64,000 nucleotides of DNA. Source: Mobula hypostoma (Eukaryota). Both the position numbers and the translations under genes were made by a program. The DNA is taken from contig NC_086108.1 of NCBI RefSeq assembly GCF_963921235.1, forward strand, positions 3,286,001 to 3,350,000, read 5' to 3'. Of this stretch, positions 2,159 to 58,814 are shown in pieces. How positions within the stretch are numbered: position 1 is the stretch's first letter; the number at the start of each line of letters is the position of its first letter. The notes beneath the pieces were generated by a model, which worked only from the letters and a program-made list of their open reading frames with translations, ran no database searches and was not told where the DNA came from.

Positions 2159-2339
2159 AACCGTTCTTTAATATGAGACACCAAATCATCACTGGTGCAG
2201 CCAACTGGTTTCAGAAGTCACATAATTAGTTAAATGGAGATCACTGTGTGCAGTCAAGGTGTTTCAATTGTAATAAAAATACACCTGTATCTGGAAGGTC
2301 CAATTGCCGGTGAGTCAATATCCTGGCAAAAACTACACC

Positions 2340-3357
2340 ACGAAGATAAAAGAACATTCCAAGCAACTCTGGAAAAAGGTTATTGAAAAGCACGAGTCAG
2401 GAGATGGATACAAGAAAATTTCCAAGTCACTGAATATCCCCTGGAGTACAGTTAAGTCAATCATCAAGAAATGGAAAGAACATGGCTCAGCTGTAAATCT
2501 TCCTAGAGCAGGCCGGCCTCAAAAACTGAGTGACCATGCAAGAAGGGGACTAGTGAGGGAGGCCACCAAGAGACCTATGACAACTCTGGAGGAATTACAA
2601 GCTTCAGTGATTGAGATAGGAGAGACTGCACGTAGAACTACTGTTGCCTGGATGCTTCACCAGTCACAGCTTTATGGGAGAGTGGCAAAGAGAAAGCCAC
2701 TGTTGAAAAAAATCTTGCATGAAATCTTGGCTAGAGTTTGCCAGAAGGCACGTGGGAGACTCTGAAGTCAGCTGGAAGAAGGTTCTATGGTCTGATGAAA
2801 CCAAAAGTGAGATTTTTGGTCATCAGAATAAACACTATGTTTGGCGTAACCAAACACCTTACATAATCAGAAACACACCATCCCTACTGTGAAGAATGGT
2901 GGTGGCTGCATCATGCTGTGGGGATGCTTCACTGCAGCAGGCCCTGGGAGGCTTGCAAAGGTAGAGGGTAAAATGAATGCAGCAAAACACAGGGAAATCC
3001 TGGTGGAAAACCTGATACAATTTGCAAAAAAACTACGACTTGGGAGAAGATTTGTTTTCCAGCAAGACAATGACCCCAAGCATAAAGGCAAAGCTACACA
3101 GGAATGGCTTAAAAACAATAGTTAATGTCCCGGAGTGGCCAAGTCAGAGTCCAGACCTCAATTCAATTGAGAATTTGTGGCTGGACTTGAAAAGGGCTGT
3201 TCACTCATGATCCCCATGCAATCTGACAAAGCTTGAGCAGTTTTGTAAAGAAGAATGGGGAAAAATTGCAGTGTCCAGATGTGCAAAGCTGATAGAGACC
3301 TGACCACACAGATTCAAGGCTGTAATTGCTGCCAAAGGAGCATCTACTAAATACTGA
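2340..3357 (+). pseudogene. Tc1 DD34E transposase pseudogene
   Basis: Paired-like HTH, GRPQK, WSDETK, FQQDNDPKH, SPDLNSIENLW, ends TKY*; ACG at the likely start, frameshifts near 2712 and 3120, internal stops. Confidence 0.92.
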
Positions 3358-4420: not shown

Positions 4421-4502
4421 ATTTATCTTCCATTAGGGGCAGAAGATAATTATATTGCTTTAACATAAGACCATAAAAGCAGAAGATATAAGAGCAGAAT
4501 TA

Positions 4503-5068
4503 CACTTGGAGTATTGTGTGCAGTTTTGGTCCCCTAATCTGAGGAAAGACATCCTTGCCATAGAGGGAGTACAAAGAAGGTTCACCAGATTGATTCCTGG
4601 GATGGCAGGACTTTCATATGAAGAAAGACTGGATGAACTGGGCTTGTACTCGTTGGAATTTAGAAGATTGAGGGGGGATCTGATTGAAACATATAAAATC
4701 CTAAAGGGATTGGACAGGCTAGATGCAGGAAGATTGTTCCCGATGTTGGGGAAGTCCAGAACGAGGGGTCACAGTTTGAGGATAAGGGGGAAGCCTTTTA
4801 AGACCGAGATTAGGAAAAACTTCTTCACACAGAGAGTGGTGAATCTGTGGAATTCTCTGCCACAGGAAACAGTTGAGGCCAGTTCATTGGCTATATTTAA
4901 GAGGGACTTAGATATGGCCCTTGTGGCTAAAGGGATCAGGGGGTATGGAGGGAAGGCTGGGGCAGGGTTCTGAGTTGGATGATCAGCCATGATCATACTA
5001 AATGGCGGTGCAGGCTCGAAGGGCCGAATGGCCTACTCCTGCACCTATTTTCTGTTTCTATGTTTCTA
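4503..5068 (+). mobile_element. Young 5'-truncated CR1 (family of 38301-40809)
   Basis: Open ORF 4506-4973 LEYCVQFWSP...GYGGKAGAGF; (tatgtttc)n tail; splits the tail of an older CR1. Confidence 0.92.
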
Positions 5069-12296: not shown

Positions 12297-12525
12297 CAAA
12301 CCCAGGAGAAAATGCTGTTTAAACTCAACAGGTCGGGCAGTTTCTGCGCAAGGAGAAGCAGTCAACATTTTGGGTCTGTAATCCTTCGTCAAAGCTGACG
12401 CAAGGTGGTAGGCCCAAAATGTTGACTACTTCTCGTTCCACAGATGCTACCTGGCCTGCTGAGTTTCCCCAGCATTTTCTGGCCTTGTTTCATATTTACA
12501 GCATCTGCAGGTTTTTAGATGTTCT
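12297..12525. mobile_element. Degenerate Penelope-derived fold-back element
   Basis: Inverted arms gaaaatgctg...cagcattttc with a decayed hammerhead-like centre. Confidence 0.65.
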
Positions 12526-13826: not shown

Positions 13827-14304
13827 CATCTATTCTGGGGTGAACTATTAAACTGCCCACTCTCATCGCCCTGCAGCTCTCCACTCCTCTGCCATCCATG
13901 TACCCATCCAAACTTCGTTTAAATGTTGAAATCAAATCCACTTGCGCAGGCCACACTCCACACTCCACACGCTCAGCACCCTCTGAGTGAAAAGGTTTCC
14001 CTTCATGTTCCCCTTAAACAATTCACCTTTCACCTTTAACCCATGACCGATAGTTCTAGTCTCACCCAGCCTCAGCGGAAAAAGCTCCTTGCACTTACCC
14101 TATCTATACCCCTCATAACTGTGTATACCTCTGTCAAATCTCCCCTCCTTCTTCTACGCTCCAGGGAGAAAAGTACGAACCTGTTCAATCTTTCCTATAG
14201 CTCAGGTCCTCAAGTTCTGGCAACATCCTTGTAAAGTTTCTCTGTACTCTTTGAATCTTATTTACATCTTTCCTGCAGGTGACCAGAACCACAAACAATA
14301 CTCC

Positions 14305-14520
14305 AACACGAGGAATTCTGCAGATGCTGGAAATTCAAGCAACACACATCAAAGATGTTGGTGAATGCAGCAGGCCAGGCAGCATCTCTAGGAAGAGGTA
14401 CAGTCGACGTTTCGGGCCGAGACCCTTCGTCAGGACTGTACCCGAAACGTCGACTGTACCTCTTCCTAGAGATGCTGCCTGGCCTGCTGCGTTCACCAGC
14501 AACCTTGATGTGTGTTGCAA
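14305..14520. mobile_element. Penelope-derived fold-back element
   Basis: About 75-bp near-perfect inverted arms (14338-14416 vs 14441-14519). Confidence 0.85.
14397..14442 (-). ncRNA. Minimal type-I hammerhead ribozyme motif
   Basis: GGUACAGUC-CUGACGA-AGGGUCUCGGCCC-GAAA-CG-UC-GACUGUACC: intact core, helix II, 9-bp helix I. Confidence 0.75.
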
Positions 14521-14739
14521 CGATACTCCAGATTAGGCTTCAGCAGCACCATTATTTATTTATTTGGAGAACTAGTGTGGAACTGGCCTTTCTGGCCTAA
14601 CAATGTCTCCAACACTGGGATCATCTCCATACCACCAAGTCCCAGAGAGATGATCGTACAGTCTTCTTGCAATATATTTAGCTGTTGTAAGATAAACTGC
14701 CTCTAGTAGTCTTATAGAGTCTTAGGGTCCTGGAAAAAG

Positions 14740-19570: not shown

Positions 19571-19798
19571 TTCTGCCCTACACTGGATGGAGTCAGTTCC
19601 TCCCACCCGTCCTGCCAAATTAGATGAAGCAGTCCATGCAATCCAGTTGAATTCTCTGCCAGGTGGAACTGCGCCTGGCTGTTATTGGCTCACACAGCAC
19701 ACACACGGCAGGTAGTGAGTAATGGAGAGTTAACACAGCTGCAGAGCTGAGCGGCAGTAGGACATACCAAGTGAATCAAAGTGAATTAATACTTATTT

Positions 19799-19804
19799 TT
19801 TATT
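19799..19804 (-). terminator. Candidate SIRT2 polyadenylation signal AATAAA
   Basis: AATAAA on the minus strand in AT-rich non-repeat sequence about 1.25 kb past the stop; no transcript evidence. Confidence 0.35.
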
Positions 19805-20087
19805 TTCCAACATCAGAAACATGCCAAACTTTATATATCTAATATTTAACCATTAATGAAAGATCAGAGCTAATTATTTGTAAATGCATATTAAGAGTAA
19901 TTTGGCGATTTTAAGGTTAAAGTGTTCACACTTCAAACTTCACTCTGTTTCTACAGGACGTTGCCCATCTAGTTCAATTCTCCATCAATCCAATTCCTCA
20001 TTGTTGACAGAGAGACTTCTTGCAGCCCTGCCATCAAAACTATTTTGTGTCAATGTGAACCCAACAAAACTGTATTTACCAGTTACT

Positions 20088-20668
20088 TGCAAACATAAGA
20101 AAATCCGCAGTTACTGGAAATCCAAGCAACACACACAAAATGCTGGTGAGAGAGGGAAATGGCCCACCCATTTCAATTCTACTTCCCTTTCCCATTCCCA
20201 CATGTCAGTCCACGGCCTCCTCTACTGCAGCGATGAAGCCACACTCAGGTTGGAGGAGCAACACCTTATATTCTGTCTGGGTAGCCTCCAACCTGATGGC
20301 ATGAACATCAACTTCCAATAATTGTCCCCCCTGCCTCTCAAAACCATTCCCATTTCCCTTTCATACCTCTGGTGCTCCTTCCCCTTTCCTTTCTACCCTC
20401 CCCGATCAGATTCCCCCTTGTCCAGCCCTTTACCTCTTTCAGCAATTAACTTCCGAGCTCTTTACTTCACCCCTCCCCTCACACTCTCCCAGCTTCACCT
20501 ATCACCTGCCACCTTGAACTTCTTCCTCCCTTTCCCATCTTCTGCTCCAACTCTCATCCTTTTTCCAGTCCTGATGAAGGGTTTCAGCCCAAAATATTGA
20601 CTGTTTATACCCTTTTCCATAGTAGTTGCCTGACCTGCTGAGTTCCTCCAGCATTTTGTGCGCATTAT
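20088..20668 (+). mobile_element. Penelope-like element fragment
   Basis: HFNSTS..HSHMSVHGL..RLEEQHLIFCLGSLQPDGMN (PLE C-terminus) followed by decayed hammerhead at 20566-20603. Confidence 0.8.
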
Positions 20669-21045
20669 TTACCATTTGCTGCTTGGTACTCCCAGACAGC
20701 AGAAACTAAGTCTCATTTTATAGGAAAGAGTGGACAAGGATTAAAAAATTACGCCAAGAATTGCAGTTTCATCCTGACCACCGTGGACATATTGGTCCCC
20801 TGACTAGATTTCTATAATCAAACCATCCAAGAGAAAGCAAACCTGTAATATATATTTTGACGGAGTAACAAGATTGCATTTGATGTCACAGGATTGAGGG
20901 GAGGATGAAGTTCTTTACAGTTAAGATCCATAGCACTTCACCTGAGGTACCGAGGAGTTTGTAAGACAGCTGACTTTCCCTGCCAGATGTCTGGCCTGGT
21001 TATTTGGGGCTGTGGTCTGTCTGCAACCACTGTTTTCTTTAGGCA

Positions 21046-21180
21046 TTAGGCTTCTTGGTCTGTCTCTGCCTCCTGCTTGCTCTTCTCCTCTGAAGCCTGG
21101 GGGCTGGCTGAGGCTTGTGTACCTTTGGCCATGCTGTCTATCATAGCGTGCTCCCTTTCCACAATTCCTTCAAGCTCCTC
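21046..21180 (-). CDS. SIRT2: Sirtuin-2 terminal coding exon
   Basis: cag|EELEGIVEREHAMIDSMAKGTQASASPQASEEKSKQEAETDQEA*; resembles human KELEDLVRREHASID; TAA at 21048-21046. Confidence 0.93.
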   Translation of the reverse strand, partial: EELEGIVEREHAMIDSMAKGTQASASPQASEEKSKQEAETDQEA

Positions 21181-27975: not shown

Positions 27976-28145
27976 CATCTATGGAAAGGAGTACAGTCGA
28001 CGTTTCAGGCCGAGACCCTTCATCAGTCCCAATGAAACGTCGACTGTACTTTTTTTCCATAGATGCTGCCTGGCCTGTTGAGTTCCTCCAGCATTTTGTG
28101 TGTGTTGCTTGGATTTCCAGCACCTGCAGATTTTCTCTTGTTTGT
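27976..28145. mobile_element. Penelope-derived fold-back element, right part (left part at 25400-25429 and 27050-27074)
   Basis: gtacagtcgacgtttca...tgaaacgtcgactgtac; minus-strand CUGAUGA..GAAA core. Confidence 0.8.
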
Positions 28146-33354: not shown

Positions 33355-34480
33355 AGCACTCCACCAGCCTCCACGTCCAGCATGTAATTCTCATAACTTC
33401 TGTCATCTCCAACTGGATCCCACCACCAGCCTCCACGTTCAGCATGTAATTCTCCGTAACTTCTGTCATCTCCAACTGGATCCCACCACCAGTCTCCACG
33501 TCCAGCATGTAAGTCTCATAACTTCTGTCATCTGCAACTGGATCCCACCACCGAGCACATCTTTCCCTCCCCCCCACCACAACTCTCTGTTTTCCACAGG
33601 GATCGCTCCCTACCTGACTCCCTTGTCCATTTGCCCCTCCCCACTGATCTCCCTCCTGGGATTTATCCTTGCAAGCAGAACAAGTGCTACACCTGCCCCT
33701 ACACCTCCTCCCTCACTACCATTCAGGGCCCTAAAGAGTCCTTCCAGGTGAAGCGACACTTCACCTGGGAGTCTGTTGGGGTCATATATGTGTTCAGTGC
33801 TCCCCGTATGGCCTCGGGTATATTGGTGAGACCTGACGTAGATTGGGAGACCACTTCGCCAAGCACCTACACTCCATCCGCCATAAAAAGCGGGATCTCC
33901 CAGTGGCCACCCATTTTAATTTCACTTCCCATTCTGACATGTAAATCCATGGCCTCCTCTACAGTGGCAATGAGGTGGGAGGAGCAACACCTTATATTCC
34001 ATCTGGGTAGCCTCCTACCTGATGGCACAAAAGTCGATTTCTCGAACTTCCTGTAATATCTCCACCTCCCTTTCACCATTCCCCATTCCCTTTGCTCTCT
34101 CTCTCACCTTATCTCCTTACCTGCCCATCACCTCCCTCTGGTGCTCTTCCTTCTTCCATTTCTTCCACGGTCTTCTACCCTCTGCTATACGATTCCACCT
34201 TCTCCAGCCCTGTATCTCTTTCACCAATCAACTTCCCAGCACTTTACTTCATCCTGATCCACACCCGGCTATCCTATCACCCTGTTGTTCTTCCTCTCTT
34301 CCCCCTAACTTCTAACTCTGACTCCTTATCTTTTTTTTTCTCCAGTCCTGATGAAGAGTCTCGGCCTGAAACGTCGCTATACTCTTTCCTATAGATGCTG
34401 CCTGACCTGCTGAGTTCCTCCAGCATTTTGTGTGTGTTGCTTTGGATTTCCAGCATCTGCAGATTGTCTCTTGTTTGTCA
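33355..34480 (+). mobile_element. Penelope-like element (GIY-YIG remnant plus pLTR)
   Basis: PGIYPCKQNKCYTCPY..HFTWESVGVIY..EEQHLIFHLGSL.PDG; hammerhead core at 34343-34380; inverted pLTR copy from ~34510. Confidence 0.85.
33362..33552. repeat. Triplicated ~63-bp unit at the Penelope 5' end
   Basis: caccagcctccacgtccagcatgtaattctc..ataacttctgtcatctccaactggatccca x3. Confidence 0.85.
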
Positions 34481-34828
34481 ACGGTGCTTCATCTGGGTTT
34501 AAGTTCACTGAACACAAGGGATTCTGCAGATGCTGGAAATACAGGGCAACAAACACACAAGATGCTGGAGGAACTCAGCAGGTCAGGAATAAACCATAGA
34601 TGCTGCCTGACCTGCTGTGTTCCTCCAGCACATTGTGTGCATTGCATAAGTTTCTTAAAGACAAGGTTTGTCTCCCTTTCTCTCCTTTCCCGTTGTTCCC
34701 CACCTCTCTCTCTATGCAACAATTAGAGTACTGTGCCACCAGATTATGTGTGAGGTGATAGTTAGAGGTGAGGTGGAGTGAACTAATTAATGATGGGTTA
34801 TGAAGGCTTGCTGGAAATTTCAACACAC

Positions 34829-58261: not shown

Positions 58262-58470
58262 AACAAAAACAAGAGAAAATCTGCAGATGCTGGAAATCTA
58301 AGCGACACTCACAAAATGCTGGAGGAACTCAGCAGGTCAGGCAGCATCTATGGAAAAGAGTCCAGTTGAAGTTTCGGGCTGAAAAAGGGCCTCGGCCTGA
58401 AACGTCGACTGTACTCTTTTCCATAGATGCCGCCTGACCTGTTGAGTTCCTCCAGCATTTTGTGTGTGTT
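58262..58470. mobile_element. Penelope-derived fold-back element
   Basis: cacaaaatgctggaggaactcagcagg..cctgttgagttcctccagcattttgtg; centre ctgaaaa..gaaacgtcgactg. Confidence 0.8.
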
Positions 58471-58814
58471 CCTCCAGGAGTATCTCATTTTGTTGAATAA
58501 AATGCTTCTGGGTCTCTCCCGTGACCTTCTTCACATTACAACACTACCACCTCACTGCTCCAGTGACCTGGGTTCAGTTCTGACCTCAAGTTCTGTCAGT
58601 GTGGGGTCTGTACATTCTCCCAGTGACTGCATTGGTCCCCACCACACGCCAAAGACAGAAGAGGCAAAGGGTTAATCGGCTGCTCCCAGTAAATTAATGT
58701 CTAGACTTTAATATTCCTATCCTTTGTTTTCAAACTCTGCCATGCCACATCCTTTCTGAACTCTGAATAGGTAAATTAGTTTATTATTGTTAAGTGTCAC
58801 TAAGATTGTGAAAC

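What the first reader, a model, noticed from the sequence alone, without database searches (positions are those of the whole stretch)
14305..14520. Intact minimal hammerhead ribozyme inside a competing fold-back
Seen: the minus strand reads GGUACAGUC CUGACGA AGGGUCUCGGCCC GAAA CG UC GACUGUACC, with all core bases, helix II, a 9-bp helix I and a vestigial helix III. An upstream inverted arm of about 75 nt pairs with the GAAA/cleavage-site half, so the ribozyme and the long hairpin are mutually exclusive folds. Known: Penelope-like elements carry such minimal type-I hammerheads, reported to work as dimers. Inference: a non-autonomous retrozyme-like element whose self-cleavage is gated or silenced by its own antisense arm. 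It lies in the same orientation as SIRT2 and the candidate downstream exon.
Basis: partly seen in the sequence, partly recalled or inferred. Interest (0 to 1): 0.7.

Follow-up and report, generated by a model that had tools for sequence, protein, structure and literature searches.

The report
Head-to-head Penelope retrotransposon stub
This 214-base hairpin is a real insertion made of two mirror-image copies of the ribozyme-bearing end of a very abundant Penelope-type jumping gene, and it is likely a dead by-product of that element's known way of inserting, its ribozyme predicted to be locked shut, rather than a self-copying RNA switch.

Summary
In detail: an intact minimal type-I hammerhead core (14433-14406, minus strand) lies inside a 78-bp, 95% fold-back. 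The interpretation mostly does not. The unit is the end of a Penelope-like element (RT + GIY-YIG, Neptune/Nematis-type zinc finger) written twice head to head, with a 34-nt tail on one arm and a 12-nt target-site duplication: the published inverted-pLTR-plus-tail layout. The native ribozyme junction occurs 44,898 times in this genome, this exact junction twice; 41 of 42 short two-armed copies have their own junction, so the hairpins do not spread as a unit. The 9-bp helix I is a junction product. The arm is predicted to suppress the ribozyme fold by about 31 kcal/mol: silenced, not gated. The insertion lies about 5.3 kb beyond where SIRT2 mRNA contigs end. Two family-level regularities are worth keeping: copy 5' ends pile up at the ribozyme's front edge, not at its cut site (19 of 70; replicated 16 of 81), and two-armed insertions carry exactly one tail (31 of 34, both never). 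This scan reached the same reading before in other ray genomes and elsewhere in this one.

The parts
14519..14530 (-). target-site duplication, upstream copy (12 nt, 1 mismatch to the other copy)
   Evidence: duplicates the 'EY(C/R)' codons of the LINE remnant it interrupts
14441..14518 (+). inverted, tail-less second copy of the pLTR end (element positions +17 to +94, C3 of the ribozyme = 0)
   Evidence: 1 difference in 78 nt from the family's commonest letters
14434..14442 (-). junction: 9 nt repeating part of the inverted arm and ending in the 4 native bases before the core; forms the 5' strand of the 9-bp helix I
   Evidence: native upstream differs (44,898 exact matches); this junction 2 matches; direct arm-to-helix-I junction 62 matches
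14406..14433 (-). minimal type-I hammerhead core: CUGACGA, unpaired A, 4-bp helix II, GAAA, ACGU palindrome, C17; predicted cut 14406/14405
   Evidence: 0 differences from the family's commonest letters over -4 to +58; activity not tested
14339..14405 (-). helix I 3' strand (14405-14397) and rest of the pLTR end up to the tail-less end point
   Evidence: 3' ends pile at about +95 and +129
14305..14338 (-). 34-nt tail, present on this arm only
   Evidence: [quoted passage not shown]
14294..14305 (-). target-site duplication, downstream copy (first T shared with the element's end)
14150..14304 (-). decayed LINE ORF2 remnant (CR1-like by recalled motif) into which the element inserted; continues upstream of 14519
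   Evidence: translations; same motif in intact-frame neighbours such as 4464-4973
19781..21180 (-). context only: last SIRT2-like exon (stop 21048-21046) and 3' UTR as covered by RNA-run contigs

Best explanation
This is a single insertion of a Penelope-like retrotransposon reduced to two head-to-head copies of its ribozyme-bearing end, and it is likely a dead by-product of insertion whose ribozyme is predicted to be locked by the mirror arm. Shown: the anatomy (duplication, tail-less inverted arm, junction, core, tailed arm, duplication), the parent family with RT and C-terminal GIY-YIG, the copy number, the private junction. Inferred mechanism: the element's protein cut both strands of an old LINE remnant about 11-12 nt apart; each cut end primed a cDNA on element RNA, one at the far start site (giving the 34-nt tail) and one at the near site (no tail), as the two internal start sites seen in vitro for the anole element would predict; both cDNAs stopped in or just past the ribozyme after about 80 and 135 nt; their 3' ends were joined through short complementarity (the helix I bases AGTC/GACT, with one 9-nt slip), and repair filled in the duplication. 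The hammerhead is inherited cargo. In any read-through RNA the upstream arm would be made first and sequester GAAA and the cut site, and the ribozyme has no partner for a dimer nearby.
For: Layout matches the published inverted pLTR + optional 30-40-bp tail + TSD (PMC8557442 and PMC3846280 passages; 34-bp repeat in PMC2377424). Longer copies run upstream into an ORF with YIDD, DKG, CX4CxxC and GIY-YIG (RVT_1 and GIY-YIG at E about 2e-4, both below Pfam's cut-off; 751 homologues, nearest named ones from rays at 81-90%). 45 of 81 tail-anchored arms whose 5' end is in view have an adjacent inverted arm, at all lengths. One tail per insertion: 31 of 34, both 0, none 3; independence expects 16.9/7.1/10.1, p = 1e-6. 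TSD of 10 nt or more in 43 of 66 against 2 of 65 mismatched-flank controls. Junctions 41 distinct of 42. Core positions decay like their neighbours within error (9/567 against 72/2772, p = 0.18) and 18 of 63 copies have a broken core. Fold penalty 30.6-32.5 kcal/mol with the arm, 4.1 without. Two RT start sites flanking the tail, cleavage and extension of both strands, and no need for ribozyme cleavage in vitro: PMC11167929.
Against: The two-cDNA step is inferred from end statistics, not observed; the in vitro data are from a Poseidon-clade element and this family has the Neptune/Nematis zinc finger. The same 28-nt junction occurs once more, on the same contig 4.7 Mb away, with the tail on the other arm, which a one-off event does not predict. 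One locus (L150) holds two long inverted arms that both have tails and was not resolved. The core point estimate of decay is lower than background (1.6% against 2.6%), though not significantly. No empty site was examined in another individual or species.
Confidence: 0.87

Rival explanations
1. One cDNA made the whole hairpin by self-priming: it ran through the ribozyme, its 3' end folded back on the helix I complement and copied itself.
For: 62 exact copies in which the arm runs straight into helix I through the shared 4 bases; self-priming was proposed from junction palindromes in PMC3846280 (passage); the tail-on-ribozyme-arm layout of this copy is compatible.
Against: Copies with the same helix I junction but the tail on the inverted arm (L038, L055) cannot be made by copying a tail-less first strand; tails fall on either arm; most junctions are not at helix I; about 7 of the 19 hotspot copies have no inverted arm.
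Confidence: 0.07
2. One reading: a non-autonomous retrozyme-like element that moves as a unit and whose cleavage is gated by its own antisense arm.
For: Core is intact and identical to the family's commonest letters; in 20 of 25 short two-armed copies with a whole core the arm covers GAAA and the cut site; the junction recurs once.
Against: No tandem units, which define non-LTR retrozymes (bioRxiv 10.64898/2026.07.22.740005); ends not at the cut site; 41 of 42 junctions distinct and 17 of 42 sense arms lack a whole core; 31-32 kcal/mol is too deep for a switch; covering of the core follows from both arms stopping at the same hotspot.
Confidence: 0.03
3. A dead insertion since co-opted at the SIRT2 locus, as a read-through terminator or a double-stranded RNA substrate for editing or small-RNA production.
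For: Same strand as SIRT2; a 78-bp duplex would form in any read-through RNA.
Against: About 5.3 kb past the end of the mRNA contigs; only 4 differences in 211 nt from the family's commonest letters, so it is young; such ends occur about once per 77 kb, so proximity is expected; no A-to-G cluster in this copy or bias in 72 partner arms.
Confidence: 0.03

Closest known systems
Inverted-pLTR insertions of endonuclease-bearing Penelope-like elements (PMC8557442, PMC3846280, PMC2377424; passages read)
   Same: Head-to-head inverted 5'-truncated copy, 30-40-nt tail on one end only (34 nt here), TSD of about 10-16 nt, hammerhead in the pLTR, parent ORF with RT then GIY-YIG.
   Different: This is the shortest form: no ORF sequence, both arms stop at the ribozyme. 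The passages read call the tail optional; here it is on exactly one arm in 31 of 34.
Minimal type-I hammerheads of metazoan PLEs (PMC4209133; results and discussion read)
   Same: CUGANGA, unpaired base between 9 and 10.1, G10.1-C11.1, GAAA, palindromic 15.2-16.2, no helix III loop, mostly single dispersed copies; that paper also notes pairs on opposite strands 100-700 bp apart.
   Different: Helix II is 4 bp, not the 7-8 bp of the Schistosoma motifs; helix I is lengthened to 9 bp by the junction; the core is covered by an antisense arm.
Anole Poseidon element PAc (PMC11167929; main text read)
   Same: Two fixed ends delimiting the tail about 95 and 129 nt past the ribozyme core; copy ends do not mark the ribozyme cut site.
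   Different: PAc is Penelope/Poseidon clade and its ORF starts in stem II; this family has the CX2-5CxxC linker and no open frame from the ribozyme.
Non-LTR retrozymes (bioRxiv 10.64898/2026.07.22.740005; first part and passages read)
   Same: Non-coding, type-I hammerhead, derived from PLE pLTRs.
   Different: Retrozymes are head-to-tail tandem units each with a ribozyme; this is one head-to-head pair with one whole core.

Membership tests
Minimal type-I hammerhead of PLEs | Core C3-A9, G12-A15.1, U16.1 and H17 | tested here: met
Minimal type-I hammerhead of PLEs | Unpaired base between 9 and 10.1, G10.1-C11.1 pair, palindromic 15.2-16.2, no helix III loop | tested here: met
   against the features listed in PMC4209133
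Minimal type-I hammerhead of PLEs | Self-cleavage as a dimer or with protein help | not testable with these tools
   needs in vitro transcription; published activity is low or protein-dependent
Rfam hammerhead families | Covariance-model hit | tested here: not met
   these motifs were found in print with a relaxed descriptor, not Rfam
Endonuclease-bearing Penelope-like element insertion | Inverted 5'-truncated pLTR adjacent head to head | tested here: met
Endonuclease-bearing Penelope-like element insertion | 30-40-nt tail on one end | tested here: met
   34 nt, 14338-14305
Endonuclease-bearing Penelope-like element insertion | Target-site duplication | tested here: met
   12 nt, 1 mismatch
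Endonuclease-bearing Penelope-like element insertion | Parent ORF with RT followed by GIY-YIG bearing two cysteines between the motifs | tested here: met
   in longer copies of the same family; direct Pfam scores are below the curated cut-offs; no intact full-length ORF was seen in 11 loci
Neptune/Nematis clades | CX2-5CxxC zinc finger in the RT-endonuclease linker | tested here: met
   CX4CxxC in several copies, degenerate in L159 and L152; definition from PMC8557442
Neptune/Nematis clades | Placement in an RT tree with named references | not tested
   no clade-labelled reference sequences were fetched
Penelope/Poseidon clade | Absence of the linker zinc finger | tested here: not met
Non-LTR retrozyme | Two or more head-to-tail units, each with a complete hammerhead | tested here: not met
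   definition
Non-LTR retrozyme | Unit ends set by ribozyme cleavage | tested here: not met
   1 end at +26 to +30 against 2.0 expected
Non-LTR retrozyme | Circular RNA intermediate | not testable with these tools
   only contigs were available
MITE / fold-back DNA transposon | Fixed length and interior, inverted repeats at both very ends | tested here: not met
   asymmetric tail, variable interior, TSD 10-21 nt

The most novel reading that the evidence does not exclude
The stubs record how Penelope-like elements integrate: every two-armed insertion is made by a paired reverse transcriptase that starts once at each of the two internal sites (hence exactly one tail), and the ribozyme's front edge, not its cut site, is where both cDNAs end and are joined, either because the element's RNA begins there (internal initiation near the 5' end giving run-off cDNAs) or because the folded, protein-bound ribozyme and its helix I complementarity serve as the stop-and-join signal. 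The hammerhead would then act as a structural landmark for integration rather than as a nuclease.
Probability: 0.3. Interest if true: 0.5.

Novelty: new member of a known kind. Interest (0 to 1): 0.2.

Why it matters
The locus itself is ordinary: one of tens of thousands of ends of a known retrotransposon class. What may matter is the family-level record. How Penelope-like elements make inverted repeats and tails, and what their weak hammerheads are for, are stated open questions (PMC8557442, PMC11167929). The one-tail rule and the pile-up of 5' ends at the ribozyme's front edge give two quantitative predictions that the existing in vitro system can test directly.

Tried and rejected
Rfam: no hammerhead hit at any setting; the mir-5681 match is a generic hairpin score, 48 bits against a cut-off of 88. 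Ribozyme cleavage as the source of 5' ends: rejected. Splicing as the source of the hotspot: the native sequence before the core looks like a 3' splice site, and the D. virilis intron ends at helix I, but 5' ends smear from -9 to +2, share no upstream exon, and none of the 15 joints shown of 70 has GT..AG ends: inconclusive. Transcription start at -8 or -4 (initiator-like, motif recalled): compatible, untestable with contigs. RNA editing scars, a lead from earlier scan notes: none in this copy, no T>C or A>G bias in 54 + 18 partner arms. Expression: no RNA holder listed on record; runs were guessed to be RNA and are contigs; depth over 14303-14669 is summed over the repeat family and says nothing of this locus; no long contig piece listed there. 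Empty-site reconstruction from LINE copies in hand: 0 colinear flank pairs among the loci searched. My first label Penelope/Poseidon was dropped. A sequence look-up in the scan's notes found nothing. The dimer-cleavage paper PMC5785218 is not held; it is cited only through PMC6765202. Supplements: three text files of PMC11167929 searched without hits, its supplementary figures and the bioRxiv supplement were not seen and may already show 5'-end distributions.

Full report
Observation. The motif is there as described: CTGACGA at 14433-14427 and GAAACGTC at 14413-14406 on the minus strand, a 4-bp helix II after one unpaired A, the ACGU palindrome in place of helix III, and arms at 14441-14518 and 14339-14416 of 78 nt and 95% complementarity. 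The hairpin is far beyond chance (z = -20.8). Rfam gives no hammerhead hit at gathering score or at E<=10. Below, positions count from C3 of the core (14433) as 0; the cut site is +27/+28.

It is a repeat. The window holds more than ten related pieces. A DNA search of the genome had 1,512 candidates, scored 40 and matched all 40 on both strands; the 30 loci fetched, the window's among them, are two-armed with differing junctions (this set is selected for likeness to the query). Exact-pattern counts: 93 for a 48-nt core variant, 1,412 for the 71-nt tail end, 2,149 for +8 to +73, 44,898 for the native sequence across the front of the core, 62 for a junction in which the inverted arm runs directly into helix I, and 2 for this copy's junction.

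Parent element. Copies that extend further upstream pass through a pyrimidine-rich pLTR into an ORF end. In 11 long loci the frames are broken but show DKG, YIDD, a CX4CxxC linker and a GIY-YIG domain with internal cysteines. Pfam scores are weak (RVT_1 E 1.8e-4, GIY-YIG E 2.2e-4, both under the cut-off); the homologue search gave 751 hits, the nearest named ones from rays at 81-90% identity, so the host is likely a ray. By the definition in PMC8557442 (passages) the linker zinc finger marks Neptune or Nematis and excludes Penelope/Poseidon; no tree was built. In L037 the tail runs on into the ORF's 5' region.

Anatomy of this copy, 5' to 3' on the minus strand: 12-nt duplication (14530-14519), tail-less inverted arm (+94 to +17), a 9-nt junction, the core, the pLTR end, a 34-nt tail (14338-14305), and the second copy of the duplication (14305-14294, one mismatch). 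It interrupts a decayed LINE reading frame whose codons are duplicated at the site. It differs from the family's commonest letters at 4 of 211 positions. The 9-bp helix I is chimeric: native copies pair over about 4-7 bp, and the extra bases repeat the inverted arm.

Is the hairpin a unit or a by-product? Sample 1: 92 of the first 100 listed tail matches (all on contig C1, of 1,412). 45 have an adjacent inverted arm, of 81 whose 5' end is in view, and arms range from under 100 nt to over 1 kb; of the 40 whose outer end is in view none reaches the tail. Sample 2: the first 90 of 100 listed matches of the +8 to +73 anchor (of 2,149), 7 dropped as already in sample 1 for the end statistics. Among 34 two-armed insertions with both outer ends in view, 31 have one tail, 0 both, 3 none (one of these has half a tail); independence expects 16.9, 7.1 and 10.1 (p = 1e-6). 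L150 in sample 1 may be a both-tail exception. Duplications of 10 nt or more flank 43 of 66 insertions against 2 of 65 controls. Of 42 short two-armed insertions 41 have distinct junction coordinates; 25 keep a whole core on the sense arm, and in 20 of these the other arm covers GAAA and the cut site. So hairpins are made anew at each insertion. This is the layout described in PMC8557442 and PMC3846280 (passages) and PMC2377424 (passages).

Does the ribozyme work here? Constrained folding puts the ribozyme-compatible fold 30.6-32.5 kcal/mol above the hairpin with the arm and 4.1 without; the outer part of the hairpin can stay paired in either fold. The arm is upstream, so it would be ready first. 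Such motifs are inactive as monomers and weak as dimers (PMC4209133, parts 1-2 of 4 read), and the anole one cleaves only with protein and is not needed for insertion in vitro (PMC11167929, parts 1-2 of 4 read). Across 63 ungapped copies (1 of 64 dropped) non-CpG core positions changed at 1.6% and others at 2.6% (p = 0.18), CpG positions at 17%, and 45 keep an intact core: no clear sign of selection on inserted copies.

SIRT2. Exons with sirtuin motifs (recalled) lie on the minus strand from about 57700 to 21180, stop at 21048-21046. Contigs of three runs guessed to be RNA, with no differences from the window there, cover the last exon down to 19781-19826; a fourth from another organism stops at 19805. 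The element starts about 5.3 kb further on, in a stretch where the ORFs that I could recognise are LINE and transposase fragments.

The unexpected part. 5' ends of copies pile up at -9 to +2, the front edge of the ribozyme: 19 of 70 arms at risk, 16 times the upstream rate (window chosen after seeing the data), and 16 of 81 in sample 2, 9.5 times, p = 4e-11 (a few of these arms are partners of sample 1 insertions). The cut site is not enriched (1 against 2.0 expected). Inverted arms stop in the same zone, which is why ~200-nt hairpins are so common and why the arm so often covers the core. The cause is open: RNA 5' end, splice site, or stop and join at the folded ribozyme. My paper searches and the passages read did not show this distribution in print, but coverage was partial and supplementary figures were not seen.

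Mechanism, committed. Staggered double cut; two cDNAs primed from the two ends, one at each internal start site; both end at the ribozyme; joined by short complementarity; repaired into a duplication-flanked hairpin. Anatomy and statistics are shown; the steps are inferred from them and from the in vitro work on a different clade. Single-strand self-priming explains the helix I junctions but not those with the tail on the inverted arm.

Earlier scan notes (read): 44 findings in at least 15 genomes hold the same words; the eight shown reach the same reading, and one from this genome also noted starts at the ribozyme's front edge. They are not independent support. Their editing lead was tested and not found here.

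Verdict: a new copy of a known kind of insertion; interest 0.2, nearly all of it from the family-level end statistics.

Noticed in passing
window 20112-20660: A Penelope-like copy with endonuclease C-terminus, pLTR and degenerate hammerhead lies antisense inside the SIRT2 3' UTR, with a short inverted arm; RNA-run contigs cover it, so the mature mRNA would carry a small duplex.
   Followed up: partly
L253 (= L020), G000:C50:7967322-7967535: The only other exact match of this copy's junction lies on the same contig 4.7 Mb away, with the tail on the opposite arm and different flanks; the one shared change is at a CpG, so kinship is undecided.
   Followed up: partly
62 places genome-wide, e.g. 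L038, L055, L132: Fold-backs in which the arm continues helix I into a stem of about 60 bp and leaves the core free (fold penalty 4.1 kcal/mol); these, not the window copy, would be the candidates for an active ribozyme.
   Followed up: partly
element position about -480 to -520 (L084, L198, L057): A second, weaker pile-up of 5' ends near an AT-rich stretch of the pLTR, some with symmetric junctions: 6 of 25 and 5 of 34 arms at risk.
   Followed up: no
window 12307-12480, 27976-28142, 58268-58473, 34343-34654: Older fold-back stubs of related subfamilies with broken or missing cores.
   Followed up: partly
L150, G000:C1:235570005-235575257: Two long inverted arms that both carry the tail, a possible exception to the one-tail rule or two nested insertions.
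   Followed up: no
window 2277-3125: Transposase-like reading frames resembling Tc1/mariner (recalled motifs) on the plus strand.
   Followed up: no
P0002, P0009: Ray gene models named after unrelated host genes contain long stretches of this element's ORF, suggesting mis-annotation or exon capture.
   Followed up: no
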